From an uncultured Spirochaetaceae bacterium (GTDB taxonomy: Bacteria; Spirochaetota; Spirochaetia; DSM-27196; SLST01), in contig CAZICD010000001.1 of NCBI GenBank assembly GCA_964537725.1, forward strand, positions 63,878 to 127,877: a DNA stretch of 64,000 nucleotides, in the 5' to 3' direction. The notes beneath the pieces were generated by a model. It ran no database searches, was not told the DNA's origin, and was given only the letters and a program-made list of their open reading frames with translations. Within the stretch, counting starts at the first letter, position 1. Each line of letters starts with the position of its first letter. Position numbers and translations under genes: made by a program. Below are positions 8,000 to 63,569 of the stretch, in pieces.

Positions 8000-9010
8000 A
8001 TGAGAACCTCAGTTATCTTCGCGATCATGGCGGTCGCGCTCGCGAGCGCCGCTTGCAGCACCCCCGACCGTGATCTCCCGAACGGCCTGTACGCGGAGAT
8101 CCAGACGGCGAAGGGGGACATCGTCATCGAGCTCTTCGACGAACGCGCACCGGCGACGGTGATGAACTTCGTCGGCCTCGCCGAAGGCGCGATCGACAAC
8201 ACGCACGCGCCCGGAGAACCGTACTTCGACGGGCTGACCTTCCACCGCGTCGAGCCGGGCTTCGTCATCCAGGGCGGCGACCCGAAGGGCGACGGCACCG
8301 GCGACCCGGGCTACCGGTTCCCCACCGAGACGCACCCCGAGCTCGTGCACGACGGGCCCGGCATCGTCGCGATGGCGAACTCCGGACCGGACACCAACGG
8401 CAGCCAGTTCTACATCACGATGGCACCGACGCCTCAACTCGACGGCGGCTACAACGTCTTCGGCGAGGTCGTCGAGGGCATGGACGTCGTCGGCTCGATC
8501 GAGGCCGGCGACCGGATGCGTCGCGTCTCCATCCTCCGGGTCGGAGACGAGGCGCAGGACTACGCACCGTCGCAGGAGTCGTTCGACGCGCTCGTCGCCG
8601 ATATCCGCGCGGAACGCGAACGCCAGCGCGAGGAGGCTCGACAGGCGGCGCTCGACGCGCTGCGCGACGAGTACCCGGGACTCGCCGAGTACGAGGACAC
8701 GGGTCTGCTCCTCGCCGAGATCCGTGCGGGGAGCGGCGCTCCTCCGCAGCAGGGCGACGAGGTCGCGGTGCACATCGTCTGGTCGCTTCCCGACGGCAGG
8801 CAGCTCGACAGCACGCGCGATCGCGGCGAGCCCGAGCGCTTCGTGTACATGCAGAACCGGCTCATCCGTGGGTTGGAGATCGCGATCGGTACGATGAGCG
8901 TGGGTGAGCGGACCGTCGCGGTCGTCCCGCCGGAGCTCTGGGGCGGCAACCGTCCGCCGATGATTCCGGAGGACAGCCACGTCGTCTTCGACATCGAGCG
9001 GCTGGAATAG
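8000..9010 (+). CDS. Lipoprotein fusing cyclophilin-type and FKBP-type peptidyl-prolyl isomerase domains
   Basis: Lipobox (LASAACS). Cyclophilin motifs (FHRV, GGDPKGDGTG, MANSGPDTNGSQFYIT), then an FKBP-like C-terminus (GDEVAVHIVWSLPDGRQLDS...LIRGLEIAIGTMSVGER). Confidence 0.8.
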   Translation: MRTSVIFAIMAVALASAACSTPDRDLPNGLYAEIQTAKGDIVIELFDERAPATVMNFVGLAEGAIDNTHAPGEPYFDGLTFHRVEPGFVIQGGDPKGDGTGDPGYRFPTETHPELVHDGPGIVAMANSGPDTNGSQFYITMAPTPQLDGGYNVFGEVVEGMDVVGSIEAGDRMRRVSILRVGDEAQDYAPSQESFDALVADIRAERERQREEARQAALDALRDEYPGLAEYEDTGLLLAEIRAGSGAPPQQGDEVAVHIVWSLPDGRQLDSTRDRGEPERFVYMQNRLIRGLEIAIGTMSVGERTVAVVPPELWGGNRPPMIPEDSHVVFDIERLE

Positions 9011-9031
9011 CGCGGGCCCGCCGGGCGAGTC

Positions 9032-11212: not shown

Positions 11213-11390
11213 CTCGTCACCACAATAGGGTGCCCGGGTGGCGTCGTCAAGGCAGAGCGTTTGGCCGGTAGTCACGCCTCTTGATACCCGCCGGGTGGAG
11301 TATATGTCACTTTTTTCACAACCAAGCGGCGTTGCGGACGTATAGTTAGGAAGAGCCCGGCCGACGCCGGCCCTCGAGGAGGATTCGCCA

Positions 11391-13211
11391 ATGATCGACC
11401 GACCGAACGCACGCATGGCTCCCCGGGTCAGAACCGCATTCCACGCCGGTTTCGCGCTCGCGCTCCTCGCGACGCTCGGCGCGTGCGCGACCGCCCCACA
11501 GCAACCGGACCTGAGTACCCGCGGCGACTACGGGCCGCTCATCGACTACGCGAGCGAAGCGATCCCGCGCGCGATGGAGGACCACGACGTGACCGGCCTC
11601 TCGGTCGCGCTCGTCGACGGGGACGAGGTGGTCTGGATGCGAGGCTTCGGAGAGGCGGATGCGGAAGCCGGCGTACCGGCCGGCGTACCGGCCGACGAGC
11701 AAACCGTCTATCGAATCGGTTCGATCACCAAGCTCTTCACCGCGACGGCGATGATGCAACTGGCCGAGCAGGGGCTGGTCGACATCGACGCGCCTGTCAC
11801 CGACTACATCCCCGAGTTCCGCGTGCGGTCGCGGTTCGCCGACGCCGGTCCCATCCGGGTGCGACACCTGATGACGCATCACTCGGGACTCCCCGGCGAT
11901 AAGGTCAAGGCGATGTTCGGCGATCCACCGGATCACTACCGCGAGTTCGTCCCCTACCTCGCGACGCAACACGTCTCGACCCCGCCGGACTTCGTCTTCG
12001 CGTACTCGAACCTCGCGGTCGGGCTCGCCGGCGTCGTCATCGAGCGGGCGAGCGGGCTCTCCTACGAGGAGTACGTCACCCGGAACATCCTCGACCCGCT
12101 GGGCATGCGCGGCACATCGGTCTCGCTCGACGAGCGGACGGCGTCAGCCTACGCGAAGGCGTACTCCTCCGGCAACGAGCAGACGGAGCTCGACCTGGGT
12201 AATGCGCCGGCCGGCGGAATCTACTCGAACGTCGAGGACATGACGCGGTTCGTCCGCTTCGCGACCTGCGGTGGCGAGGTCGCCGGTACGCGCGTGCTTA
12301 AGGCGCAGACGCTCGCGCAGATGATGAGCCCGCAAAACGAGACGGTAACGCGTGACCTGGGTCGGCCGATGGGCCTGGGCTGGGCGATCGCACGCGCAGG
12401 ACTCGATCACGTGGAGCCGGTAGCGTGGCACAACGGCTCCACGATGTACCACCAGAGCACGATGGTGGTCCTGCCGGAGCACGGACTGGGCGTCGTGCTT
12501 CTGTCGAACTCGGACACCGGCTCCCGTGTCATCGAGCCGATGGCCGATGCCATCCTCACGATGGCGCTCGAAGTTCGCGAGGGCATCGCACCGCCGGAAG
12601 ACGAGCAGACGTGCGCCGGAGCGACACTCTCGCCGGAGCTCGCCGCCACGATCGCCGGCAGATACGCGACGCCGCTCGGCGTGATCGACGTGCAGCAGCG
12701 GGGCAGACGGCTCGTAACGCGGCTGCCAGGAACGCCGAGACTGCACCTCGTTCCGTGCGACGACGGGTGGCTCGCGCCGCAGTTCCGGCTGCTCGGCCTG
12801 CTTCCCCTCCCGGTCGCCGACCTCGCGGGCGTGCGCTTCGCCGGCGTCGAGATCGACGGGACGCGCTACCTCGCGGTGAAGAGCGGACGCTACGGCCAGC
12901 TGATCGGCGAGGAGCTCGAGGTCGTCCCCATCCCGGCCACGTGGCGCGCGGCCGAGGGCACCTACCGCGTCGTCAACCCCGACCCCGGATGGGGCTTCCG
13001 GCGCGTCGATGCGGAAATCGTGGACGGGGTGGCGATCGCGCGGGTGAGCCTGTTCAACGGCGATGAGCTCCAGCTCGTTCTCGAGCCGCTCAACGAACGC
13101 GAGGCGGTCGTCCAGGGCATTGGCCGGAACACCGGCGACACTCTGACGCTGCGCTTCGAGGGAGACCGGCCGGTGATCGAGGCGACCGGCTACGTGTTCG
13201 AGCGAGAGTAG
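11391..13211 (+). CDS. Serine hydrolase (beta-lactamase/PBP4-like) lipoprotein with extra C-terminal domain
   Basis: S-x-x-K motif (GSITKLF), YSN motif and a lipobox (LATLGACA). GAGGAGG Shine-Dalgarno. Confidence 0.8.
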   Translation: MIDRPNARMAPRVRTAFHAGFALALLATLGACATAPQQPDLSTRGDYGPLIDYASEAIPRAMEDHDVTGLSVALVDGDEVVWMRGFGEADAEAGVPAGVPADEQTVYRIGSITKLFTATAMMQLAEQGLVDIDAPVTDYIPEFRVRSRFADAGPIRVRHLMTHHSGLPGDKVKAMFGDPPDHYREFVPYLATQHVSTPPDFVFAYSNLAVGLAGVVIERASGLSYEEYVTRNILDPLGMRGTSVSLDERTASAYAKAYSSGNEQTELDLGNAPAGGIYSNVEDMTRFVRFATCGGEVAGTRVLKAQTLAQMMSPQNETVTRDLGRPMGLGWAIARAGLDHVEPVAWHNGSTMYHQSTMVVLPEHGLGVVLLSNSDTGSRVIEPMADAILTMALEVREGIAPPEDEQTCAGATLSPELAATIAGRYATPLGVIDVQQRGRRLVTRLPGTPRLHLVPCDDGWLAPQFRLLGLLPLPVADLAGVRFAGVEIDGTRYLAVKSGRYGQLIGEELEVVPIPATWRAAEGTYRVVNPDPGWGFRRVDAEIVDGVAIARVSLFNGDELQLVLEPLNEREAVVQGIGRNTGDTLTLRFEGDRPVIEATGYVFERE

Positions 13212-54040: not shown

Positions 54041-54811
54041 CTACTCCGACGGACGCACGTTCCCGGTCTCGCCCTCCTCGGCGAGGAGCGTCTCGTACGC
54101 CGCCTGAATCCGCTTGAACGCCTGCTCGGTCGCCTCCCGCTGCCGCTCGCTCAGCGTCGCCGCGGTATCCGGATGGAACTGGGCGGCGAGCCTGCGGTAC
54201 GCCGTGCGGACCTCGTCTCGACTCGCGTCGCGCGCGATCCCCAGCACCGCACACGCCTCCGCGTCCCGGAACCGCCTGAGCACCAGCTCGCGCGCGATAA
54301 ACCCCTCGTCGATGCCCACCCTCCGCGCGATCGCGCGCACCTCATCGCGCGCGGGCAGCGTTGCGCGCGTACGGCCCACGGCGTTCCACGCGGCGGTCAC
54401 GACGCGCTCTCGCTCGTCGAGCGGGCACGCGGCCGCCAGACGCGCCGCGTAGACGTCGATCCCGCTCCACGGGTGCGTGGCGGCGGCGACGATCATCCGT
54501 TCGACCTGACGACGCGCCCAGCGGTCGGGATGGACCGGGCGCAGCTCCGCGGCGAGCCGGTCGACCGCCGCCGGGTCGACCCGCGGATGCGGCTGCAGGT
54601 GGCCGAGCAGCTCACCGGCGAGCGCGACCTGCCGCGGCAGCCACGCGGGAGCGTCGTCGCCGTCGAGATAGCGGATCGTGGCCCGGTGCACCCGGAATTC
54701 GGCCCAGACCAGATCGACCAGAAACCCGATGAACAGCCCGAACAGAGCGCCGAAGACACCGCCGAGCAGCCCTACCGCGAGCCCGGCGAGCGTTCCCCAG
54801 TAGCGCCTCAT
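54041..54811 (-). CDS. DjlA-like membrane-anchored J-domain co-chaperone
   Basis: N-terminal TM (LAGLAVGLLGGVFGALFGLFIGFLV), a helical middle, and a C-terminal J domain with HPD (RRLAAQFHPD). ATGA overlap with the upstream gene. Confidence 0.75.
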   Translation of the reverse strand: MRRYWGTLAGLAVGLLGGVFGALFGLFIGFLVDLVWAEFRVHRATIRYLDGDDAPAWLPRQVALAGELLGHLQPHPRVDPAAVDRLAAELRPVHPDRWARRQVERMIVAAATHPWSGIDVYAARLAAACPLDERERVVTAAWNAVGRTRATLPARDEVRAIARRVGIDEGFIARELVLRRFRDAEACAVLGIARDASRDEVRTAYRRLAAQFHPDTAATLSERQREATEQAFKRIQAAYETLLAEEGETGNVRPSE

Positions 54812-56505
54812 TCGCGGGTGCCCAGGGCGACGTAGGAGAGCGCGAGGAAGAGCAGCAGCGCCTGGAGGCAGGCCACGAGGACCGCGGTGAGGGTCACGCT
54901 CACCGACAGGAGCACCGTCGACACGAGCAGTCGCTGGGCGTACTGGAGCGTGAGGTAGACCGGGAGGATGAACACCGGAGCGAGGGGGATCAGGACGAGC
55001 GTGGGGATGGGAGGCATATGGAGGTAGCGGCTTCGGTAGCGCCAACCGAACCCCATCAGCAGCAGCGAGAGAATCAGAAAGGTGAACGGAGCGAGCAGCC
55101 GCATCAGCAGCTCGACCTCCACCGGTTCGGGGATGAGACCGTAGGCGTCGAGTACGGACACGGTGCGCACGAGCGCGGCGATGCTCGCGGTGGACGGTTC
55201 GCGGGAGACCGATCCGAGCAGCCACAGCTCCCGGGCCGAAGGTTCGACCTCGATCAGATGCTCGAAGGAGGCCGACGGCGCGCCGGCGTGGACGGTGGGC
55301 GCCATCCCGAGCGCGCGCGACTCGCGGTCGATGACGTTCAGGACGAAGTGGCCGTCGGTGAGCTTGCCGTACTCGCTCGAGACATGAAGCGTCCTCGTCC
55401 CGTCGGATGCAACGCGTAGGAGCTCGATCTTCTGGCCGTACACGCCACTCGCGGTCCGAACGAGTTTGCCGATGGCCAGCAACTCGACGAAGTCGGCGCC
55501 GGTGCGGTTGACGAGGACAACGTCCGGTGCACCCGGCATCCCCATCACCGACTCGACTTCGTCCCGGAAGACCGCCATCGACCGAACCTGCTCCTCGGCG
55601 GCGCGCAGGTAGCGCTCCACGTCCACATCGCGTGGATAGTCCCGCGCGAGCTCGACGAACCGGTAATACGCGTCCACGTAGTTCTGACGCGTGAGCGCCG
55701 CCTTCGCCGCCTGCTTCATCTGGAAGAGCTCGTACTCGGCGCTCTCCTCGTCGTCGGGCGCGAGCGCCTCCAGCCGCCCGAGCGCCTCGGCGGCGATCCG
55801 GGCCGCATCGGCGTTGCCGGGCGCGAGCGCGCGGGCGAGGGTGGCCATGTAGTGCGCCGTCGAGTAGTCCTCGTCCTGCATCGCCGCCGATGCGCGGTCG
55901 ACGAGCTCGCCGGCGGTGGCGCTCTCCGGCACGGCGAACCGCTCGTCCTCCTGCGTCGCCTCGAGCCGCACCGCGTCGGCGCGGGCGGCGTCGCGAACCT
56001 CTATCAGCAGCTCCTCCACCTCCTCGCTCTCCCCGACGAGCGCGAGGTACTGATTGAGATCGGAGAGCGCCTGCGTGTAGTTCTGACTCTCGCGAGCCTC
56101 ATCGGCCGACTCACGCAGTCGGCTCGCGAGCGTCGTCGTGAACTCCAGCGATTCGACTCGCGAAGCAGCCGAGGGATACCCGACGAGATAGGCGCCGGCG
56201 AAGACGAGCGTGAGCGCGAGCAGGAGGCCGATCGATCGACCGAACCGCTCGAAGGTCGACCGCGCGGCCCCGGACGACTGCATGGGCACGATCCAGCCGA
56301 AGACGAGCAACGTCGCCCACCCCTGCGCGACCGGCGCGAGCCGCAGGTACTCCGCCCACGTGCGTGCGGTGATCCACGACCACTGGAACTCCGCGAGCAC
56401 GGTCTTCGTGGTGAACGAAAAGATCGATACGAGCAGCAGCACGCCGAACGCGACGCCGTGACAGATCACCGAGGAGGCGAGCAGCTTCCTCCAGCTCTCA
56501 CCCAT
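54808..56505 (-). CDS. Integral membrane protein (3 TM, large extracytoplasmic region, 3 TM) with helical TPR-like insertion
   Basis: 565 aa. The topology resembles LptF/LptG-type permeases, but no sequence motif was recognised. 8-nt overlap with the upstream gene. Confidence 0.55.
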   Translation of the reverse strand: MGESWRKLLASSVICHGVAFGVLLLVSIFSFTTKTVLAEFQWSWITARTWAEYLRLAPVAQGWATLLVFGWIVPMQSSGAARSTFERFGRSIGLLLALTLVFAGAYLVGYPSAASRVESLEFTTTLASRLRESADEARESQNYTQALSDLNQYLALVGESEEVEELLIEVRDAARADAVRLEATQEDERFAVPESATAGELVDRASAAMQDEDYSTAHYMATLARALAPGNADAARIAAEALGRLEALAPDDEESAEYELFQMKQAAKAALTRQNYVDAYYRFVELARDYPRDVDVERYLRAAEEQVRSMAVFRDEVESVMGMPGAPDVVLVNRTGADFVELLAIGKLVRTASGVYGQKIELLRVASDGTRTLHVSSEYGKLTDGHFVLNVIDRESRALGMAPTVHAGAPSASFEHLIEVEPSARELWLLGSVSREPSTASIAALVRTVSVLDAYGLIPEPVEVELLMRLLAPFTFLILSLLLMGFGWRYRSRYLHMPPIPTLVLIPLAPVFILPVYLTLQYAQRLLVSTVLLSVSVTLTAVLVACLQALLLFLALSYVALGTRE

Positions 56506-57481
56506 GCTCGACCTCCCGTCTCCACTCCTCGAGCGGGGGAAGGAATACGAGCCCGGCGAGGAGTCCGACACCGAGCGCCGCGAGCAGCGCCGCCGAGGCG
56601 AACGGAAGCGCACGGGAATCGAACGCGGCGATCAGCACGTCACGCAGCACGCCGGCGTGCACCGCCGGGACGATCCAGAACGCGAACCGAAGCGCCGAGA
56701 GGACCAGAACGACGTTGAAGAGCGGCCAGCGCGTGAGGCGAGCGAGCGTCCACGAACCGAGGAGATAGACGCCGAGCGCCGCGAGATTGAGCAGGCCCGG
56801 CAGCACGCGGTCTCCGGCGAGCGAGAGCAGCCGGGCTGTGGACGCGACGTCCCGCGTGAGCCCGGCGAGGAGCGCCGGGGGCCGCACCATCGCGGGGTAC
56901 GAGTTGGACACGCCGCGCAGGTCGATCGTCGCCTCGCCGTCATCGGCGGCCGTGGTCAGCGCTCCGGGGGGGACCTCGAGCTCGCCGGAGACGGGGTCGA
57001 TCTGCGCGCGGGGTACGACCGAAAAGCCGGGGGTCCGCCGCTCCTCGTGGAGCACGAGCGGCGCGAGCTCGGAACCGTCACGGTCGAGCGCGTACACCCG
57101 CCGGAGCTCGGCCCGTACGATGCGTCGCTCGGGCACGACGATGGCGGGATCGGGCGGTGCTGCGCCCACGACGCCGGTCACGAATCCGCCGGCGACGAGC
57201 GCGCCGGTCCACGCCGCGAAAAGGATCCCTATCGCCGCTGCCGGCGCCTGCATCCTGCGCACCGCCGAGAAGAGCGCGATCGCGCCGGCGAGCAGGACGG
57301 ATACCGGCCAGACGAGCGCGAGCGCGTACAGGAGTCGCGCGATGAACGACGGCGAGAGACTTGCCCCGGATGGATCAAAGCCGATAACATAGCCGTGCGC
57401 TACGACCAGCGCGCTCGAGGCGAGCACGATCAGCACGAACCAGAACAGGAATCGCACCAGCAGGCGGATTGCGGCTTTCAC
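56498..57481 (-). CDS. Integral membrane protein (3 TM, ~110-aa loop, 3 TM)
   Basis: 327 aa from GTG 57481. Longer track starts would run into the divergent sigma-factor gene. LptF/LptG-like topology only. Confidence 0.5.
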   Translation of the reverse strand: MKAAIRLLVRFLFWFVLIVLASSALVVAHGYVIGFDPSGASLSPSFIARLLYALALVWPVSVLLAGAIALFSAVRRMQAPAAAIGILFAAWTGALVAGGFVTGVVGAAPPDPAIVVPERRIVRAELRRVYALDRDGSELAPLVLHEERRTPGFSVVPRAQIDPVSGELEVPPGALTTAADDGEATIDLRGVSNSYPAMVRPPALLAGLTRDVASTARLLSLAGDRVLPGLLNLAALGVYLLGSWTLARLTRWPLFNVVLVLSALRFAFWIVPAVHAGVLRDVLIAAFDSRALPFASAALLAALGVGLLAGLVFLPPLEEWRREVEHG

Positions 57482-57548: not shown

Positions 57549-58118
57549 GTGCCGGGTAGTATCCCTGAACGAGAAGAACGAGCACTCATTGAGCGTGCGC
57601 AGCGTGGCGACACGGCCGCATTCGGCGTGCTCGTGCAGCGGTACCTGGAACGCGTGTACCGCGTCGCGCACGCGATCGTGCGCAACGCCGACGAGGCGGC
57701 GGATATCGCGCAGGACACGTTCGTGAGGGCGTTCCGCCGGATGGACCGGTTCGACCCGCAGCGGCCGCTGTTTCCCTGGCTCTACCAGATCGCCCGCAAC
57801 CTGGCGCTCAACCGAATCGAGCGGGTGCGCAGACGCGAGGCGACGCTGCCGGAGCAGGACGCGCTGCTGGCCGTCGGCCCGGGACCGGAGGAGGCTCTGA
57901 TAGCCGCGAGCGAGTCGGAGCGCGTGCGCGCGGCGGTCGCGTCGCTGCCCGAGGCGCATCGCGAGGTGATCGAGCTCAACCACTTCCAGGAGTGCTCGTA
58001 CCGGGAGATGGCCGATATCCTGGGAATCCCCATCGGCACGGTGATGTCGCGCCTCTATCACGCGCGAAGGCGTCTGAAGAGGCTGCTCGACGAGGAGACC
58101 AGCGATGTCCGCGTATAA
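57549..58118 (+). CDS. ECF-type RNA polymerase sigma factor
   Basis: Region 2 (LIERAQRGDTAAFGVLVQRY...FVRAF, PWLYQIARN) and region 4 (EVIELNHFQECSYREMADILGIPIGTVMSRL). Confidence 0.85.
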   Translation: MPGSIPEREERALIERAQRGDTAAFGVLVQRYLERVYRVAHAIVRNADEAADIAQDTFVRAFRRMDRFDPQRPLFPWLYQIARNLALNRIERVRRREATLPEQDALLAVGPGPEEALIAASESERVRAAVASLPEAHREVIELNHFQECSYREMADILGIPIGTVMSRLYHARRRLKRLLDEETSDVRV

Positions 58119-58566
58119 TCCAGACGAGAATATTCCCGAGGACGATATTCGCATCCGCATCCAGGCGCTCGTCGACAACGAGCTGCCCGAGGGCGAGATC
58201 GAGGCCGTGCTCGCAGAGATCGAGGGATCCTACGAGTATCGCACCGAGTACGCCGAGCTGCTGAAGCTCCGCCGCAAGCTTGGACCCGGCCCCGCGCAGC
58301 GCGTATCCGACGAGTGGGTCGAGCGCGCGGAGGCTCGCGTCACCCGTCGCATCGGCCGGGGGCTGGGCATGGTGCTCTTCCTCGGCTCGTACCTCGTCCT
58401 GCTCGGCTACGCGATCTACACGATGCTCCGCGAGCCCGACGTGCCCCTGATCGTCGCGGTGCTCATCCTGGGCGTCGTCGCCGGCTTCGTCATCTTGCTC
58501 GCGACCGCGATCGCGGATAGAGTACGGGAGCGAAAGACCGACAGGTATCGGGGGATCATACGATGA
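58105..58566 (+). CDS. Putative membrane anti-sigma factor (no zinc-finger Cys/His)
   Basis: It overlaps the sigma gene by 14 nt. The N-terminal helical segment (IQALVDNELPEGE) sits where ZAS motifs usually lie. Two C-terminal TM helices. Confidence 0.5.
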   Translation: MSAYNPDENIPEDDIRIRIQALVDNELPEGEIEAVLAEIEGSYEYRTEYAELLKLRRKLGPGPAQRVSDEWVERAEARVTRRIGRGLGMVLFLGSYLVLLGYAIYTMLREPDVPLIVAVLILGVVAGFVILLATAIADRVRERKTDRYRGIIR

Positions 58567-58883
58567 TTGTCGCTACGACCGACTCATTGCCGGGACGACG
58601 CGTAACCGCGGTGCTGGGCCTGGTTCGCGGAAACACGATCCGTGCCCGCCACCTGGGAAAGGACATCTCGGCAGCCTTCAAGAACCTCGCCGGCGGCGAA
58701 ATCTCCGACTACACGAAGATGATGGCCGAAAGCCGCGAGCAGGCGATCGACCGCATGATCGAGGACGCCGAGTCGGTCGGAGCCGACGCGATCGTCGGTG
58801 TACGGTTCACGACGAGCTCGGTGATGCAGGGCGCCGCCGAGATCCTCGTCTACGGCACAGCGATCCGTTGCGAATCGGAATAG
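58563..58883 (+). CDS. YbjQ/UPF0145-family protein
   Basis: 106 aa. It shows VRGNTIRARHLGKDI...GGEI..Y......R..A...M...A...GADAIVGVRF. ATGA overlap with the upstream gene. Confidence 0.85.
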   Translation: MIVATTDSLPGRRVTAVLGLVRGNTIRARHLGKDISAAFKNLAGGEISDYTKMMAESREQAIDRMIEDAESVGADAIVGVRFTTSSVMQGAAEILVYGTAIRCESE

Positions 58884-58901
58884 GACTCATCTCCCCACAG
58901 G

Positions 58902-58910
58902 TTATCCACA
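58902..58910 (+). promoter_or_regulatory. Perfect DnaA-box 9-mer TTATCCACA (box 1)
   Basis: Exact match to the consensus high-affinity box, 19 nt after the ybjQ stop. It is preceded by a partial direct copy (CCCCACAGG / ATCCACAGG). Confidence 0.4.
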
Positions 58911-58942
58911 GGCTGAAACGGCCCTGGAACGCGGTTTCAGCC
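58911..58942 (+). terminator. Hairpin after ybjQ (GGCTGAAAC...GTTTCAGCC)
   Basis: 9-bp stem with a 14-nt loop, immediately after DnaA box 1. No U tract follows. Confidence 0.3.
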
Positions 58943-59126
58943 CCCTCGCGGGGTATCGTGACCGCGTCGAATTCGGCCGGATGCAGCCGGAATTGACGTA
59001 ATTACTTTCACAGAAAGGTATTATACGATTGTCAACGGATTCCAGGCCTTTTCTTTGGATTTCGTGGGGCGGAGTATCTTAAAACCTGTATAGCGGTTGG
59101 CCCGAGCGAGGTGTGTTTTGCACGGG

Positions 59127-59135
59127 TTATCCACA
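59127..59135 (+). promoter_or_regulatory. Perfect DnaA-box 9-mer TTATCCACA (box 2)
   Basis: Exact match in the same orientation as box 1, 31 nt before the stop of the minus-strand regulator gene. Confidence 0.4.
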
Positions 59136-59166
59136 AGCAGTCTCGTGCATGCATCAGCCGTGCCGA

Positions 59167-59862
59167 CTATCGGCATTCCAGACGGTATCCGCGGCCTCGC
59201 GAGCACGAAATCGTGGGTGGCGCGGGCCAGTCCGACGCGGCCTGCGCGAGCCTGCTCCGCAGGCGGGAGAGATGCATGTCGACAGCCCTGCTCGCGGGAC
59301 CGTGGTCCGGGACGACCGCCTGAAGCGCCTCGCGCGGGACCGGATCGTCGCCCCCGCGAGCGAGCATCTCGAGCATGGCGAGCTGGACAGGAGAGATCCC
59401 GACGCGGTGCGCCGGGTCGTCGCCGTCCACCGAGACCCAGTAGCGACCGAAGTGGAGCTCGCCTGCCGCGCACCTCACCATGCGGCGCCGGAGCAGGCGC
59501 CGAACGCGATAGCGCAGTTCCTGCGCGGTCCACGGTTCGACGAGCACGTCGTCGCAGGCTGCGTCGTCGATCGAGTCGAGCGCCGAGGGGGATCCGTAAA
59601 CGAGGACGGGCGGGGCGGCGGGAAGGCCTGCGTCGGAGGCAACCAGGCTCGCGGGCCCGATGATCAGTACGGGGATGTCGCCGTCGGAGAGCGAGGCGAG
59701 CGCGCGTGCGTCGACGTTGTGCACCGCCCGACGCGTCCCCGATTCGAGCGCGAGCCGGACGCGCTCGCGCGTGTAGTCGTCGGCGCCGACGAGCCAGACG
59801 TCGGAGACCGGTCGGTCAGGACTCTTCGTTGAGCTTGCGCTTGAGCGCTTCGAGCTCTTCAT
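59167..59862 (-). CDS. OmpR/PhoB-type winged-helix regulator with degenerate (non-phosphorylatable) receiver
   Basis: C-terminal wHTH (ISPVQLAMLEML...AVDMHLSRLRSRL...GRGYRLE). The receiver positions D, T and K read I, G and E. The start is uncertain; ATG 59862 overlaps the pspA 3' end by 47 nt. Confidence 0.65.
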   Translation of the reverse strand: MKSSKRSSASSTKSPDRPVSDVWLVGADDYTRERVRLALESGTRRAVHNVDARALASLSDGDIPVLIIGPASLVASDAGLPAAPPVLVYGSPSALDSIDDAACDDVLVEPWTAQELRYRVRRLLRRRMVRCAAGELHFGRYWVSVDGDDPAHRVGISPVQLAMLEMLARGGDDPVPREALQAVVPDHGPASRAVDMHLSRLRSRLAQAASDWPAPPTISCSRGRGYRLECR

Positions 59863-60631
59863 CGACCTCTTCGGCGGAACCCGAGTCAGAGGAACCCGGA
59901 GACGCGCCACCGGCCTGGGAAGAACCGGCATTCTCACCGGACGAGCCGCCGGTCTTGTCCTCGATCGCCATCTTCTGCTTCAGGTCCTCGAGGAGCTGTT
60001 CGGTGTTTCCGCCGGCCTCGAGCTGGGCGAACTGCTGCTCGAGGCTCTCGCTCTCGGTCGTGCCCTCGATCTCGAGCATCGCGTCGTTCTCGGCCTCGAT
60101 CTGGTCCATGCGCTTGCTCATCTGGTCGAAGGCCTCGAAGGCGGATGTGTCGGCCATACCGCCGATCGTCTCGTTGATCCGCTTCTGCGCCTCGGCGCGT
60201 CGGGCACGGGCTACGAGCAGGTTCTTCTTGCGCTGTGCCTCCTCGATCTTCTGCTGGAGCCCTCGCAGGGCGCTCTTCAGCTTCTCGACCGATTCGTGCT
60301 GCGCCTCCCACTGCTCCTTGTACTGAGTGGCGGTCTTGTCGAACTCCTGCTTGCGGATCAGCGCTTCCTTGGCGAGGTCGTCCTTCCCGGCGCGGACCGC
60401 GAGCATGGCCTTGCGCTCCCACTCCTGGCCGGCGGCGAGGTTCTCCTTCACCTGGCGCTCGAGCTTCTTCTCGTCCGCGATCGCGGACGCGACGCTCTTC
60501 TTCGACTCGATGAGCTGCTGGTTCATATCGACGATCAGCTGGTTGAGCATCTTCTCGGGATTCTCAGCCTTGCTGATCATGTCGTTGAGGTTCGATTTCA
60601 CGACTCGTCTGAAGCGATCAAAGATTCCCAC
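59816..60631 (-). CDS. pspA: PspA/IM30-family protein with Gly/Ser-rich linker and extra C-terminal helix
   Basis: GTG start after GAGGAGG. The N-terminus GIFDRFRRVVKSNLNDMISKAENPEKMLNQL is canonical PspA. Long coiled coils are followed by the tail GGSSGENAGSSQAGGASPGSSDSGSAEEVDEELEALKRKLNEES. Confidence 0.9.
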   Translation of the reverse strand: MGIFDRFRRVVKSNLNDMISKAENPEKMLNQLIVDMNQQLIESKKSVASAIADEKKLERQVKENLAAGQEWERKAMLAVRAGKDDLAKEALIRKQEFDKTATQYKEQWEAQHESVEKLKSALRGLQQKIEEAQRKKNLLVARARRAEAQKRINETIGGMADTSAFEAFDQMSKRMDQIEAENDAMLEIEGTTESESLEQQFAQLEAGGNTEQLLEDLKQKMAIEDKTGGSSGENAGSSQAGGASPGSSDSGSAEEVDEELEALKRKLNEES

Positions 60632-60642
60632 AGCGGGCCTCC

Positions 60643-61035
60643 TCAGGTCGATTGCCGGTACTTCGCGAGCCGGCTGTAGTGCTGCGCGAGCGCGAGCCCG
60701 GTCGAATCGAGCGACGCCTGGAACTCCTCGAGGTCCATGGACGGGAACTCCAGACTGTCTATCAAGATGACACTGTCCTCTTCGATCGCATAGGCCCCGT
60801 GGACCATCTCGGCGTTCAGCCGCAGGAGCTCTTCGAAGAACTCCTCGCGCTTCTCGCCGGGAACATCCATGACCTTCGCCCGAAGCGTCACGAGCTCGTC
60901 CTGGACGTAGACGACGACCGAGCTCAGCCCGTTCTCCTCGTCGGTGAGCAACCACATGTTCTCACCGATTTCCTCATAGATCAGTTCTAGGTTGATGAAG
61001 AAGCTTTCCAGCTTCTCCTGTGCTGACGCTGCCAT
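60643..61035 (-). CDS. Small acidic protein, YbjN/CesT-like (type III chaperone-like fold) by composition and pattern
   Basis: 130 aa. The alternating beta/alpha pattern (WLLTDEENGLSSVVVYVQDELVTLRAKV...LLRLNAEMVHGAYAIEEDSVILIDSL) fits this fold. AGGAG lies 7 nt before ATG 61035. This is a fold guess only. Confidence 0.55.
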   Translation of the reverse strand: MAASAQEKLESFFINLELIYEEIGENMWLLTDEENGLSSVVVYVQDELVTLRAKVMDVPGEKREEFFEELLRLNAEMVHGAYAIEEDSVILIDSLEFPSMDLEEFQASLDSTGLALAQHYSRLAKYRQST

Positions 61036-61063
61036 CACGCGACTCCTGTGAAATGTAAACCGT

Positions 61064-61082
61064 GTGACGGGAGAACCGTCAC
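61064..61082 (-). other. Intra-operon hairpin between the STAS and YbjN-like genes
   Basis: GTGACGG-ttctc-CCGTCAC on the minus strand has a perfect 7-bp stem. It is followed by acggTTTacaTTT and then the Shine-Dalgarno. Confidence 0.35.
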
Positions 61083-61111
61083 CTCAATCGGCTGCGGCAC
61101 GCCGACCGCGA

Positions 61112-61663
61112 TCAGCCGAGGAACACCTGCCCGGCCGTGTCGATCGCAAGGATCGTCTTGCACTCCGAGCAACGGAACCGGCCGGCCTTGGTCGCCTTGA
61201 GCTTCTTCCCGCAAATGGGACACTTGAAGATCTTGGGGAAGACGTCCGACCGCTGGGTCGTCCCGCCCTTGGAGAAGAACTCGACCGCCTCGTCCAGGCT
61301 GTCCTTGATGTTGAAGAACTGCGAGAAGCCGAGGAGCTGAAAGACCTCGTAGACCTTCGGCTGGATCTCGAGCAGGACGAGGTCGCCGCCACGCGGGCGT
61401 ACCGACTTGAGAAACGCGGTGAACGAACCGATGCCGGTGCTCGACACGTAGTTCAGGCCGGCGCAGTGGAAGATCAGCTTCGTGAAACCCGCTTCGATCG
61501 CACGATTCACGCGCTTCTGAAAGAAGTTGCTGTTGTAAGTATCGATGTAGCCGGTGAGAAACAGAACGAGACCGCCTTCGACGTTGTCAATCTGCTGGAG
61601 CTTGATCTTCAGGCTGTCATCTTTCTCTTCGTCGAACCCTGCAACAATGTCGTTATTAGCCAT
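61112..61663 (-). CDS. STAS-domain protein (anti-sigma antagonist fold) fused to a C-terminal CxxC...CxxC zinc ribbon
   Basis: 183 aa. STAS pattern (LVLFLTGYIDTYNS...LIFHCAGLNYVSSTGIGSFTAFL...VYEVFQLLGF), then FKCPICGKKLKATKAGRFRCSECKTIL. GAAGGAGAA Shine-Dalgarno. The gene is visibly AT-richer than its neighbours. Confidence 0.8.
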   Translation of the reverse strand: MANNDIVAGFDEEKDDSLKIKLQQIDNVEGGLVLFLTGYIDTYNSNFFQKRVNRAIEAGFTKLIFHCAGLNYVSSTGIGSFTAFLKSVRPRGGDLVLLEIQPKVYEVFQLLGFSQFFNIKDSLDEAVEFFSKGGTTQRSDVFPKIFKCPICGKKLKATKAGRFRCSECKTILAIDTAGQVFLG

Positions 61664-61719
61664 GGTTCTCCTTCAGATCCCGCGGACGCGGCCAGTTTTT
61701 TACATTTTAACCCGATCAC

Positions 61720-61748
61720 ATAGTATGAGAGCAACGGAGCTTTGTCAA
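61720..61748 (-). promoter_or_regulatory. Near-consensus sigma-70 promoter TTGACA-17-TACTAT for the STAS/PspA operon
   Basis: On the minus strand the -35 TTGACA is at 61748-61743, the spacer is exactly 17 nt, and the -10 TACTAT is at 61725-61720. The leader to ATG 61663 is about 50 nt. Confidence 0.55.
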
Positions 61749-61938
61749 ACTTGGCCGTTGCCCCTTTCACCCAGAATGTACCACGTCCGGCGGGGCTTCG
61801 CCGGTCGAATTCGGCGCCGCCGGAGTCGGCCCGCACGCGTCGTACGAGCGTCCCGGCCGGGCGCGCTCGAGTAGACCAATTCGCGTCCCCGTTGGTATAC
61901 TCGCGATGGTTCGGGTGAACGAGCCGGGAGGAGAGCCC

Positions 61939-62424
61939 ATGAAAAAGCTCGCGTTCGTCGTTCTCGTGGCTGCGCTGCTCACTCTCGTCGCGACTCCCGG
62001 GATCTCGCAGGTAACCCCGCAGGAGTTCGAGTCGGTCATCAACTTCGAGGATTCGATCGAATCGCTCGCGACGCTCGTCAACACCGGCGCGTACGATCGG
62101 ATAGACGTGGACCGCTACTACGTCCTCGACGGCGCGGTCGCATCCACGCAGATCTTCAATCCGGACCCCGAATCGTTCCAGGCGGTCATCGAGCTCGTCT
62201 CGAGCGAATGGGTCGGCCTCGAGCGCATCGAGGCGTACCATATCTACGTGCTCGTCGAAGGCCCGGAGTACGCCGCGCGTATCCCGGAGAGAATGCCGCG
62301 CGACCCGGGACCCGAAGTCATCCAGACCAATCAGGAGCTGCTCGTCATCGGTCCGTTCATCGGGACCGCGATGCTCGACGCCTCCACCGAAGTGGCGGTC
62401 ATCCAGGCGGTCGCGCTGCGCTGA
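61939..62424 (+). CDS. Small secreted hypothetical protein
   Basis: 161 aa from the ATG after GGGAGGAGAG. Signal peptide (MKKLAFVVLVAALLTLVATPGISQ). No family recognised. Confidence 0.55.
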   Translation: MKKLAFVVLVAALLTLVATPGISQVTPQEFESVINFEDSIESLATLVNTGAYDRIDVDRYYVLDGAVASTQIFNPDPESFQAVIELVSSEWVGLERIEAYHIYVLVEGPEYAARIPERMPRDPGPEVIQTNQELLVIGPFIGTAMLDASTEVAVIQAVALR

Positions 62425-62432
62425 GCGCAGCC

Positions 62433-63569
<1,137 letters not shown>

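What the first reader, a model, noticed from the sequence alone, without database searches (positions are those of the whole stretch)
59167..61748. PspA/IM30 operon with an unrecognised partner set (STAS-zinc-ribbon, YbjN/CesT-like protein, Vipp1-like-tailed PspA, dead-receiver wHTH)
Seen in the sequence: four minus-strand genes sit in one tight array. They are 61663-61112 (STAS plus zinc ribbon), 61035-60643 (130-aa acidic protein), 60631-59816 (PspA) and 59862-59167 (OmpR-type wHTH), whose start overlaps the pspA tail. A near-consensus TTGACA-17-TACTAT promoter drives the array, and it ends in the AT-rich DnaA-box spacer. The first two genes are visibly less GC-rich than the rest of the window. 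PspA has a canonical N-terminus, but then carries a ~25-aa Gly/Ser linker and a terminal amphipathic helix (AEEVDEELEALKRKLNEES). Established knowledge: an extra C-terminal helix on a flexible linker distinguishes Vipp1/IM30 from E. coli PspA. Classical systems pair PspA with PspB/PspC/PspF or LiaI/LiaF/LiaRS, and none of those is present here. Inference: a partner-switching-fold protein and a chaperone-fold protein may gate PspA assembly, with the wHTH protein as a phosphorylation-independent autoregulator. I cannot match this membrane-stress module to a described one.
Basis: partly seen in the sequence, partly recalled or inferred. Interest (0 to 1): 0.7.

Follow-up and report, generated by a model that had tools for sequence, protein, structure and literature searches.

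The report
Spirochaete PspA operon led by STAS protein
A real, conserved four-gene membrane-stress operon of uncultured spirochaetes joins the already-described chaperone–PspA pair to two partners not reported in the two PSP surveys I checked: an almost invariant STAS–zinc-ribbon protein and a phosphorylation-dead response regulator.

Summary
The TTGACA-17-TACTAT promoter is conserved.

The order STAS→CesT→PspA(→wHTH) recurs in 50 of 62 informative, roughly dereplicated Spirochaetales loci, with gaps of a few to tens of bases.
- The CesT/Tir–PspA pair is already published (Ravi et al. 2024).
- The low GC of the first two genes comes from amino-acid composition (GC3 0.84), not foreign origin.
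- STAS–ZnR is not a dedicated PspA partner. It persists where CesT, PspA or wHTH are missing, and more distant family members sit in unrelated contexts.

New points:
- STAS–ZnR is under extreme purifying selection: 98–100% amino-acid identity where third codon positions are only 54–66% identical.
- The PspA matches Synechocystis Vipp1 best and over its full length. This includes the C-terminal helix that recent papers call unique to Vipp1.
- The wHTH start lies inside that tail's coding sequence.

Verdict: a new variant of a known kind. The anatomy is solid; the mechanism is inferred. Interest is moderate.

The parts
61720..61748 (-). Sigma-70-type promoter, TTGACA-17-TACTAT (extended GTTTGACAAAG at the -35)
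   Evidence: Consensus scan, 10 of 12 matches. The -35 is invariant and the -10 nearly so in 10 loci with diverged flanks. A TTGAC core is present in 74 of 83 distinct STAS-ZnR upstream regions, most reading TTTGACAAA-N14-TAnnAT.
61664..61719 (-). 5' leader with a conserved A-rich element (GGGnAAAAATGTAAAAA) and the Shine-Dalgarno sequence AAGGAG
   Evidence: Alignment A3. A (T)GTAAAAA motif recurs in several more distant loci. Function unknown.
61112..61663 (-). STAS-ZnR: 183 aa, SpoIIAA/RsbV-type STAS domain with the phosphorylatable Ser retained (S75), plus a C-terminal 4-Cys zinc ribbon. Hyper-conserved.
   Evidence: Pfam STAS 3.3e-23; TIGR00377 58.8 bits against a cut-off of 53.45. S75 aligns with SpoIIAA S58. 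AF2 pLDDT 92.6; Foldseek TMt 0.89-0.91 to SpoIIAA/RsbV over the STAS part only. 98-100% aa identity where third codon positions are 54-66% identical.
61064..61082 (-). Stem-loop GTGACGG-TTCTC-CCGTCAC in the STAS-CesT gap
   Evidence: Read from the sequence. Hairpins of different sequence sit at the same place in L005-L009. They are absent where the gap is about 20-30 nt. Not a canonical terminator.
60643..61035 (-). CesT/Tir-type (YbjN-like) acidic chaperone-fold protein, 130 aa
   Evidence: PF22550 1.7e-23 and PF10722 above cut-off. 464 homologues, the named ones from Spirochaetota. The gap to pspA is 11 nt here, with a median of 13 nt over 50 loci.
59816..60631 (-). PspA/IM30, 271 aa, GTG start with AGGAGG 6 nt upstream
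   Evidence: PF04012 3e-52. The best solved relative is Synechocystis Vipp1, residues 1-269 against 1-266, E 3e-48. Synechocystis PspA scores 79 bits and E. coli PspA 73.5 bits.
59819..59950 (-). PspA C-terminal extension: about 25-aa Gly/Ser linker plus the amphipathic helix EEVDEELEALKRKLNEES (Vipp1 H7-like)
   Evidence: Aligns with Vipp1 VIDQELDDLRRRLN at high posterior probability. The tail alone ranks Nostoc Vipp1's C-terminus first in the PDB, but at E 0.31. It is present only in the window clade, the Salinispira clade and a few other loci. Most spirochaete orthologues end at about 230 aa.
59167..59862 (-). Atypical OmpR/PhoB-family regulator: pseudo-receiver plus wHTH, 231 aa. Its ATG lies inside the PspA tail coding sequence (47-nt overlap).
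   Evidence: Trans_reg_C 2.9e-8. An NCBIfam CseB alignment covers residues 22-228. The acceptor Asp and the Lys are lost. The AF2 model has a (beta-alpha)5 domain plus wHTH and matches MtrA, VanR, KdpE, HP1043, RitR, CosR and GlnR. It evolves fast, at 25-43% identity where PspA is 60-86%. The ATG comes from GAT-GAA, which is kept in some relatives but not all.
58884..59166 (.). Conserved AT-richer spacer at the operon's 3' end, with two perfect DnaA boxes (58902-58910, 59127-59135) and a TTGGCACG-like motif just after the wHTH stop. Context only; not shown to belong to the operon.
   Evidence: and 20 (sigma-54-like match at 59150-59165 with 2 mismatches, not above chance).
62433..63560 (-). 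Conserved left-hand neighbour: receiver plus sigma-54 AAA+ activator lacking a DNA-binding domain. Context only; no link to the operon shown.
   Evidence: Pfam. It aligns to NtrC model positions 3-377 of 463. The PspF model scores 240.6 bits against a cut-off of 443.55. Syntenic in most loci.

Best explanation
This is a sigma-70-driven operon of a high-GC Spirochaetota (Spirochaetaceae-like) genome. It extends the known CesT/Tir-PspA membrane-repair dyad with two lineage-specific regulators.

Shown:
- A strong, deeply conserved promoter precedes a 183-aa STAS-zinc-ribbon protein. This protein keeps the phosphorylatable serine of SpoIIAA/RsbV and is under extreme purifying selection.
- It is followed, at distances that in many relatives leave no room for separate signals, by a CesT-fold acidic protein. 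Next comes an IM30/PspA with a Vipp1-like N-terminal amphipathic helix and a Vipp1-like C-terminal helix. Last comes an OmpR-type regulator whose receiver can no longer be phosphorylated and whose start codon lies inside the pspA tail.

Inferred:
- PspA is the effector that coats or remodels stressed membrane.
- The CesT-like protein, made in coupled amounts, holds PspA or one of its terminal helices in an assembly-incompetent state.
- The atypical regulator, translationally coupled to PspA, feeds back on transcription and is probably controlled by protein-protein contact rather than phosphorylation. This is the logic of PspF-PspA and ClgR-PspA.
- STAS-ZnR is the signal input. A serine kinase/phosphatase pair encoded elsewhere would set its phospho-state. 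That state would decide whether it binds a target in the operon, either a protein or, through the zinc ribbon, DNA. CapS and VapS work this way at other stress operons.
- Because STAS-ZnR also occurs without PspA, it is most likely a broader envelope-locus regulator that has PspA as one of its clients.
For: Family assignments.

Operon status:
- STAS>CesT>PspA occurs in 50 of 62 informative loci.
- STAS>PspA occurs in 6 more, three of them with a 7-nt gap.
- The median STAS-CesT gap is 34 nt, with 14 of the 50 at 7 nt or less. The median CesT-PspA gap is 13 nt.
- The conserved promoter lies only upstream of STAS. No conserved promoter is visible in the STAS-CesT gap.

Order is kept while neighbours diverge to CesT 41-58%, PspA 54-74%, wHTH 24-38% and the sigma-54 activator 33-50%.

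STAS-ZnR: S75 aligns with SpoIIAA S58, and S74/S75 are nearly invariant. Purifying selection is shown.

wHTH: pseudo-receiver. The overlapping start is called by independent gene callers, and AGAGG lies 3 nt upstream of the ATG.

Literature:
- The CesT/Tir-PspA dyad is interpreted as chaperone plus effector (PMC11237479).
- A STAS two-domain protein at the head of a stress operon works as a phospho-switch, in CapS and VapS (PMC13373217).
Against: No experiment or complex prediction links STAS-ZnR or wHTH physically to PspA.

STAS-ZnR stands alone or is followed by other genes in several loci (L018, L053, L054, L096, L099). Its 48-65%-identity relatives have no PspA nearby.

The whole region from the sigma-54 activator to the LptF/G-like pair is syntenic in this lineage. 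Part of the conserved order is therefore shared ancestry rather than selection for an operon.

No kinase or phosphatase partner was found among the 29 window ORFs scanned.

In the window, a stem-loop separates STAS from CesT.

The wHTH start inside the tail is not conserved in all tail-bearing relatives.
Confidence: 0.5

Rival explanations
1. STAS-ZnR is functionally independent of PspA. It is an abundant, slowly evolving regulatory protein that anchors a long syntenic envelope-maintenance region. The CesT-PspA(-wHTH) cassette merely sits downstream of it and reads through from its strong promoter. Its real clients could be a sigma/anti-sigma pair elsewhere, or the LptF/G-like membrane pair that follows it directly in genomes without PspA.
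For: STAS-ZnR is retained without CesT/PspA. It is followed at 63 nt by the 304-aa and 586-aa membrane proteins in L054, and by the same pair in L099. A homologue of the 587-aa protein lies next to a 65%-identity STAS-ZnR in L105. Distant family members sit in unrelated contexts. The evolutionary rate differs greatly from the other three genes. The promoter travels with STAS-ZnR whatever lies downstream.
Against: In 56 of 62 informative loci a pspA gene lies on the same strand. It sits directly after STAS-ZnR in 6 of them and after the short cesT gene in 50. Gaps go down to a few bases, and this includes three lineages that lost CesT and have a 7-nt gap. Co-transcription is hard to avoid there. 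Stable co-transcription over this divergence usually reflects shared function.
Confidence: 0.3
2. STAS-ZnR is a CapS-like DNA-binding autorepressor. The zinc ribbon replaces CapS's wHTH and binds the invariant promoter or leader. Phosphorylation of S75 releases it and induces the whole operon. The pseudo-response-regulator then serves another target.
For: It has the same size and layout as CapS: about 184 aa, N-terminal STAS with a conserved Ser, a small C-terminal nucleic-acid-type domain, and first position in a stress operon. Its pI is basic at 8.56. Promoter-proximal sequence is conserved beyond the hexamers in the window clade.
Against: The leader is not conserved across the wider set of loci although the protein is about 80% identical there. 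The zinc-ribbon Pfam hits are all below their cut-offs, and no DNA-binding family was matched. No solved structure covers both domains. This is analogy only.
Confidence: 0.12
3. The first two genes, or the whole cassette, are a horizontally acquired island. This is what the lower GC suggested.
For: Total GC is 0.57-0.59 against about 0.68 for the window. The PspA is most similar to cyanobacterial Vipp1.
Against: GC3 is 0.84-0.87, the same as the flanking genes. GC2 is low because the proteins are rich in K, N, F, I and E. GC3 of STAS-ZnR tracks each host locus, from 0.32 to 0.85. The locus is syntenic across the lineage. Tail-less spirochaete orthologues are just as Vipp1-like in their core.
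Confidence: 0.03

Closest known systems
CesT/Tir-PspA dyad (Ravi, Anantharaman, Aravind et al., mSystems 2024, PMC11237479)
   Same: A CesT_Tir-superfamily gene lies immediately upstream of pspA on the same strand, and occurs as a stand-alone unit or inside larger operons. The paper proposes a chaperone-like role for it in assembly. Pfam PF22550 matches the window protein at 83 bits.
   Different: The published larger operons add band-7/flotillin, an AAA+ ATPase, YqiJ/YuaF, or polyamine genes. None of these is here. The paper's text and the one supplement held do not contain the word STAS. An atypical OmpR-type regulator overlapping pspA is not described there either.
Vipp1/IM30 of cyanobacteria and plastids
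   Same: Full-length similarity to Synechocystis Vipp1, E 3e-48. The layout is the same: N-terminal amphipathic helix, core, an ELxxLKxxM motif, a low-complexity linker, then a (V/I)DxELxxL(K/R)(R/K)(K/R)LN helix.
   Different: The host is a spirochaete by the source names of the nearest proteins, so no thylakoids are expected. The tail is present in only some spirochaete clades and looks like a repeat of the preceding terminal motif. Independent origin therefore cannot be excluded. Placement in a PspA/Vipp1 tree was not done.
E. coli PspF-PspABC, B. subtilis LiaIH-LiaFSR and M. tuberculosis ClgR-PspA-Rv2743c-Rv2742c
   Same: A PspA effector is co-encoded with its own transcription regulator. 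ClgR-PspA is the nearest in logic, with the regulator in the same operon as PspA (my knowledge of the literature, not tested here).
   Different: There is no PspB, PspC, LiaI/F, histidine kinase, PspM or PspN. The promoter is sigma-70-type, not sigma-54. The nearby sigma-54 activator has a receiver, lacks an HTH and fails the PspF cut-off. The regulator here is a pseudo-receiver OmpR-type protein.
SpoIIAA/RsbV partner-switching antagonists, and the STAS two-domain regulators CapS and VapS (PMC13373217)
   Same: The STAS fold, at TMt about 0.9, and the conserved phospho-serine position. Like CapS, the protein is about 184 aa, has a second small C-terminal domain and heads a stress operon.
   Different: The C-terminal domain is a 4-Cys zinc ribbon, not a wHTH. 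No GHKL kinase or PP2C phosphatase gene is adjacent. No solved structure has this two-domain layout.
Atypical (phosphorylation-independent) OmpR/PhoB regulators: HP1043, RitR, CosR, GlnR
   Same: A receiver-like fold without a working phospho-acceptor, joined to a Trans_reg_C wHTH. These proteins appear among the structural matches, and HP1043 gives the best TM-score, 0.50.
   Different: There is no detectable sequence kinship beyond the family level. Here the gene overlaps pspA, and an 18-residue disordered N-terminus is encoded in the other frame of the PspA tail.

Membership tests
PspA/IM30 (PF04012) | Profile match above the curated cut-off over the whole domain | tested here: met
   177.8 bits against a cut-off of 33.9, covering residues 2-219.
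PspA/IM30 (PF04012) | N-terminal amphipathic helix and a helical core alignable to solved PspA/Vipp1 | tested here: met
   Residues 1-269 align to Synechocystis Vipp1 1-266, and 1-143 align to E. coli PspA. The N-terminal helix has muH 0.54.
PspA/IM30 (PF04012) | Forms rings, rods or carpets and binds stressed membrane | not testable with these tools
   Needs biochemistry or cryo-EM.
Vipp1 sensu stricto | C-terminal extension: flexible linker plus an extra helix (H7) | tested here: met
   The tail-only search is not significant on its own (E 0.31).
Vipp1 sensu stricto | Belongs to the cyanobacterial/plastid Vipp1 clade in a phylogeny | tested here: inconclusive
   It scores far higher against Vipp1 (168 bits) than against Synechocystis PspA (79 bits). 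A tail-less spirochaete orthologue shows the same pattern, 145 against 85 bits.
Vipp1 sensu stricto | Host with thylakoids, and a role in thylakoid biogenesis or maintenance | tested here: not met
   The nearest public proteins and contigs are named Spirochaetota or Spirochaetaceae. The statement that these organisms lack thylakoids rests on general knowledge.
CesT/Tir-PspA dyad | CesT_Tir-superfamily protein | tested here: met
   PF22550 at 83.4 bits against a cut-off of 27. No solved sequence relative exists. The fold was not modelled here.
CesT/Tir-PspA dyad | Gene immediately upstream of pspA on the same strand, conserved across genomes | tested here: met
   Found in 50 of 62 informative loci, with a median gap of 13 nt. 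The dyad also occurs in a Gemmatimonadales genome without STAS or wHTH.
CesT/Tir-PspA dyad | Physical chaperone-client interaction | not testable with these tools
   Only single-chain structure prediction was available.
SpoIIAA/RsbV-type anti-sigma antagonist | STAS fold | tested here: met
   PF01740 3.3e-23. TIGR00377 scores 58.8 bits against a cut-off of 53.45. Foldseek gives E 3e-9 and TMt 0.89 to SpoIIAA.
SpoIIAA/RsbV-type anti-sigma antagonist | Conserved phosphorylatable Ser at the start of helix 2 | tested here: met
   S75 aligns with SpoIIAA S58 and with the equivalent TM1442 serine. It is nearly invariant in 60 sequences down to 37% identity.
SpoIIAA/RsbV-type anti-sigma antagonist | Cognate GHKL anti-sigma kinase and/or PP2C phosphatase encoded alongside | tested here: not met
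   None in the operon. None among the 29 ORFs scanned between 30.7 and 63.6 kb. None in the Pfam tables of related loci. The rest of the genome was not available.
SpoIIAA/RsbV-type anti-sigma antagonist | Single-domain protein of about 110-120 aa | tested here: not met
   A 4-Cys zinc ribbon occupies residues 144-182, modelled at pLDDT about 90.
OmpR/PhoB response regulators | C-terminal Trans_reg_C winged helix | tested here: met
   34.1 bits against a cut-off of 26.2.
OmpR/PhoB response regulators | Receiver domain with the acceptor Asp and the conserved Thr/Ser and Lys | tested here: not met
   The fold is receiver-like. The acceptor position is G, R or S, and the Lys position is E, D or Y. 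Pfam Response_reg gives no hit.
Classical PspF-PspABC system | PspB/PspC partners, a PspF activator and a sigma-54 promoter upstream of pspA | tested here: not met
   No PspB or PspC among the neighbours. The nearby activator scores 240.6 bits against the PspF cut-off of 443.55, has a receiver and lacks an HTH. No sigma-54 match lies upstream of the operon. The conserved promoter is sigma-70-type.

The most novel reading that the evidence does not exclude
A phosphorylatable STAS-zinc-ribbon protein, working with the CesT-fold chaperone, directly gates polymerisation of a Vipp1-like ESCRT-III-family protein. This would be partner-switching control of a membrane-remodelling polymer rather than of a sigma factor. 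In addition, the Vipp1-type C-terminal helix would be homologous to the cyanobacterial one. Its origin would then not be tied to thylakoids, and a non-photosynthetic model for its function would exist.
Probability: 0.12. Interest if true: 0.75.

Novelty: new variant of a known kind. Interest (0 to 1): 0.5.

Why it matters
PspA/Vipp1 proteins are the bacterial ESCRT-III relatives that repair membranes. How their assembly is switched on is known for only a few model systems.

This locus offers a compact regulatory set that the two large comparative surveys of PSP systems I checked do not describe. It is conserved across many uncultured spirochaetes and at least one cultured one, Salinispira pacifica, which has the first three genes.

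Two side results could interest specialists. First, a 183-aa STAS-zinc-ribbon protein is conserved at 98-100% amino-acid identity while its synonymous sites have diverged heavily, which points to an important function that is still unknown. Second, a Vipp1-type C-terminal helix occurs outside cyanobacteria. Recent papers use that helix as the diagnostic of Vipp1 and of thylakoid evolution (PMC11304991, PMC12658273).

Tried and rejected
- Foreign origin of the first two genes: rejected by GC3 and by the host-tracking GC of orthologues.
- Dual coding or RNA-level constraint as the cause of STAS-ZnR conservation: rejected because third positions diverge freely.
- Sigma-54 promoter for the operon: no match upstream. 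The only local match, at 59150-59165, lies after the wHTH stop and is within chance expectation. Its -24-like TTGGCAC is conserved in the window clade but the -12 is not.
- Internal promoter in the STAS-CesT gap: none conserved.
- Known RNA family in the leader or spacer: nothing credible in Rfam.
- Replication origin at the DnaA-box spacer: there are only two perfect boxes and no clear skew switch in 64 kb. The Salinispira copy lies at about 75 kb of its record. Left open.
- Partner kinase or phosphatase in the window: none among the 29 ORFs scanned. About 20 ORFs between 0 and 30 kb were not scanned.
- Solved homologue of the CesT-like protein by sequence: none.
- Complex prediction: not available.

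Full report
**Observation.** The window is a high-GC sequence (about 68% GC). Its nearest public proteins and contigs are named Spirochaetota, Spirochaetaceae or Spirochaetales MAGs.

Pfam assigns them as follows:
- 61112-61663: STAS (3.3e-23), with weak zinc-ribbon hits at its C-terminus.
- 60643-61035: CesT_Tir_1 (1.7e-23), plus YbjN just above its cut-off.
- 59816-60631: PspA_IM30 (3e-52).
- 59167-59862: Trans_reg_C (2.9e-8), with no receiver hit.

NCBIfam adds the anti-sigma-antagonist superfamily model for the first protein, above its cut-off. It also gives a full-length response-regulator alignment for the last. Public contigs that carry the identical PspA have the same four genes called, including the 47-nt overlap of pspA and the regulator gene.

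**Promoter and operon.** The TTGACA-17-TACTAT site at 61748-61720 is one of three promoter-like sites in 4 kb, against 0.5 expected. I aligned the upstream regions of ten related loci, whose flanks cannot otherwise be aligned. GTTTGACAAA is invariant in them and the -10 is nearly so. A TTGAC -35-like core lies within 140 nt upstream of STAS-ZnR in 74 of 83 distinct upstream regions. Most of these read TTTGACAAA-N14-TAnnAT, and the set includes outliers of 52-65% protein identity.

No sigma-54 site lies upstream. The STAS-CesT gap has no conserved promoter. In several loci it holds a stem-loop of varying sequence.

**Conservation of order.** One scan of GTDB genomes with a CesT alignment gave 12 loci. 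One scan of metagenome contigs with a STAS-ZnR alignment gave 80 more. I located homologues of the window's proteins in all of them with tblastn. After crude dereplication, 62 loci had enough downstream sequence to be informative:

| Arrangement after STAS-ZnR | Loci |
|---|---|
| CesT > PspA > wHTH | 33 |
| CesT > PspA, no detectable wHTH | 10 |
| CesT > PspA, too short to tell about wHTH | 7 |
| PspA > wHTH, no CesT | 6 |
| wHTH only | 3 |
| neither | 3 |

- The STAS-CesT gap has a median of 34 nt, and 14 of the 50 gaps are 7 nt or less.
- The CesT-PspA gap has a median of 13 nt.
- Three CesT-less loci have 7 nt between STAS and pspA.
- The order survives while CesT falls to 41-58%, PspA to 54-74%, wHTH to 24-38% and the upstream sigma-54 activator to 33-50% identity.
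- Salinispira pacifica (CP006939) has STAS-CesT-PspA without the regulator.
- A contig carrying the Alkalispirochaeta americana STAS-ZnR sequence has STAS-ZnR alone.
- A Gemmatimonadales genome has only CesT-PspA.

The four-gene order is therefore real and widespread in one spirochaete lineage. It is also modular.

**Caveat on synteny.** A much longer block is conserved in this lineage:

sigma-54 activator > 172-aa secreted orphan < STAS-ZnR > [CesT PspA] [wHTH] [YbjQ < anti-sigma < ECF sigma <] 327-aa membrane protein > 587-aa protein >

The 587-aa protein has a weak LptF/LptG hit. A DnaJ-domain gene follows it in the public loci that extend that far; I did not check this in the window. Some of the conserved order is thus inheritance. 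In loci without CesT/PspA, STAS-ZnR is followed directly by the two membrane-protein genes (L054 and L099).

**STAS-ZnR.** This is the most striking component.
- Conservation: against loci where CesT is 77-82%, PspA 80-83%, wHTH 34-43% and the activator 57-60% identical, STAS-ZnR is 98-99% identical. Its third codon positions are only 54-66% identical. In the 100%-identical L004 copy, 35 of 184 codons differ synonymously. This is protein-level purifying selection, not recent transfer, dual coding or RNA constraint.
- GC content: GC3 is 0.84, the same as in neighbouring genes. It tracks the host in every locus, from 0.32 to 0.85. The low total GC is explained by composition.
- Expression: a strong consensus promoter suggests high expression. 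By the general expression-rate relationship, that may account for part of the slow evolution. This is inference.
- Fold: the STAS domain aligns with SpoIIAA and TM1442, placing S75 on the phosphorylated serine. S74, S75 and the four cysteines are invariant or nearly so in 60 sequences down to 37% identity. The AF2 model has pLDDT 92.6. It matches SpoIIAA and RsbV at TMt about 0.9 over the STAS part only. No solved chain covers both domains.
- Family spread: the roughly 180-aa STAS-plus-ribbon family is large, with 184 representatives of 50%-identity clusters at E<1e-30. Five members at 48-65% identity were looked up, and none lies next to CesT or PspA.
- Missing partners: no GHKL kinase or PP2C phosphatase lies in the operon, among the 29 window ORFs scanned, or in the Pfam tables of related loci.

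**PspA.** The best solved relative is Synechocystis Vipp1 (sll0617), aligned over residues 1-269 against 1-266 at E 3e-48. Synechocystis PspA reaches 79 bits and E. coli PspA 73.5 bits.

The alignment includes the tail: window EVDEELEALKRKLNE against Vipp1 VIDQELDDLRRRLNN. The tail alone ranks Nostoc Vipp1's C-terminus first among 177,635 PDB sequences, but at E 0.31. Its hydrophobic moment (0.43) is close to that of Vipp1 H7 (0.49).

Recent papers state that this extension is unique to Vipp1 and arose with thylakoids (PMC11304991, PMC12658273). Two cautions apply:
- Only the window clade, the Salinispira clade and a few other loci have the tail. Most spirochaete orthologues end at about 230 aa, after the canonical LLEDLKxKM motif.
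- The tail resembles a repeat of that motif, as it does in Vipp1, so independent duplication is possible.

A tail-less spirochaete orthologue is also closer to Vipp1 than to cyanobacterial PspA. The core similarity is therefore a property of the whole clade. I could not build a tree.

**wHTH.** The protein aligns with true OmpR-family regulators along its whole length. It has G, R or S at the acceptor Asp and E, D or Y at the conserved Lys. The AF2 model (pLDDT 79.5) shows a disordered 18-residue N-terminus, a (beta-alpha)5 domain and a winged helix. Foldseek returns full-length OmpR/PhoB regulators, including the phosphorylation-independent HP1043, RitR, CosR and GlnR.

It evolves fast. Only 11 clear orthologues were found by the word-based search.

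Its ATG at 59862 is made by the GAT-GAA (Asp-Glu) codons of the PspA tail and is preceded by AGAGG. No other start codon lies between it and the first receiver strand. The GAT-GA(A/G) that creates the ATG is kept in L004, L005, L006 and L012. It is GAC in L007-L011 and L022, where the start must differ.

**Comparison with what is known.** The CesT/Tir-PspA dyad, stand-alone or within larger operons, was described by Ravi et al. 2024. That paper and Popp et al. 2022 do not mention a STAS partner. The word is absent from the first paper's text and held supplement. Its only match in the second is the surname Stasi in the reference list. Popp et al. note only that pspA in Spirochaetota tends to sit near HTH genes.

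The nearest functional analogies are:
- for the regulator, PspF-PspA and ClgR-PspA (my knowledge of the literature);
- for STAS-ZnR, the recently described CapS and VapS. These are STAS two-domain proteins of about 184 aa that head stress operons and are switched by serine phosphorylation. One is a repressor and the other a direct inhibitor of an effector (PMC13373217).

**Mechanism.**
- Shown: the anatomy, the promoter, conservation of order, selection on STAS-ZnR, the retained phospho-serine, the dead receiver, and the Vipp1-like termini.
- Inferred: the CesT-like protein chaperones PspA. The pseudo-regulator is made in step with PspA and feeds back on transcription through protein contact. 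STAS-ZnR is a phospho-switch input acting on a component of the operon or on its DNA, and it has a wider remit than PspA alone.

I put about 0.9 on the anatomy and about 0.35 on this mechanism. The main rival, at 0.3, is that STAS-ZnR is functionally independent and PspA merely sits behind its promoter.

**Verdict.** This is a new variant of a known kind of system. The hyper-conserved STAS-zinc-ribbon protein and the Vipp1-type tail outside cyanobacteria are the points worth following. Interest: 0.5.

Noticed in passing
window 58884-59166: The spacer between the convergent wHTH and YbjQ genes holds the only two perfect DnaA boxes (TTATCCACA) in 64 kb, about 225 nt apart. The same pair at the same spacing recurs in L004, L005, L009, L012, L019, L022 and L042, with conserved blocks between them (GAACCGCTAYACAGGTTTTAAGAT; TTGACA-N5-TAA). 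It could be a DnaA-box cluster, a small RNA gene or something else.
   Followed up: partly
window 59150-59165 (minus strand): A TTGGCACG-type sigma-54 -24-like motif starts 1-2 nt after the wHTH stop and is conserved in L004, L006, L009 and L022. The -12 element is not consistently conserved. The match is within chance expectation for the window.
   Followed up: partly
window 62433-63560 (-) and 61906-62424 (+): Two genes are the conserved left-hand neighbours of STAS-ZnR in most loci. One is a receiver plus sigma-54 AAA+ activator that lacks any DNA-binding domain (GAFTDA loop). The other is a 172-aa secreted acidic protein with no family match. The activator's target is unknown.
   Followed up: partly
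window 54808-57481 (-): A 327-aa multi-pass membrane protein and a 565-587-aa protein with a weak LptF/LptG hit (5e-5, below cut-off) lie here. This pair follows STAS-ZnR directly in loci that lack CesT/PspA (L054, L099). A homologue of the larger protein lies next to a 65%-identity STAS-ZnR in L105. This is a possible alternative functional partner.
   Followed up: partly
L019-L021, about 8300-11400: One or two tandem copies of an IS element (DUF772 plus DDE_Tnp_1_2 genes) are inserted between pspA and YbjQ. They lie just beyond the DnaA-box spacer, in otherwise identical metagenome contigs.
   Followed up: no
window 61664-61719 and related loci: An A-rich leader element (AAAAATGTAAAAA) lies between the -10 and the Shine-Dalgarno sequence. 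It is conserved in the window clade and recurs as (T)GTAAAAA in several distant loci. Another group of loci has a leader of about 110 nt with a second promoter-like site (CTTGCGGC...TATACT).
   Followed up: partly
window 61064-61082: A stem-loop lies between STAS-ZnR and cesT. Hairpins of different sequence occupy the same position in L005-L009, which suggests a conserved RNA-level feature such as processing, stability or attenuation. It is absent where the gap is very short.
   Followed up: partly
window 57549-58883 (+): An ECF sigma, membrane anti-sigma and YbjQ cassette runs convergent to the operon. It is present in some loci and missing in others (for example L004). It behaves as a separate insertable module in the same envelope-related region.
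   Followed up: no
L002 3403-4887: A contig 97-100% identical to the window over the four genes continues into different downstream genes (a short-chain dehydrogenase) instead of the spacer and YbjQ. This is either a rearrangement in a close relative or a misassembly.
   Followed up: no
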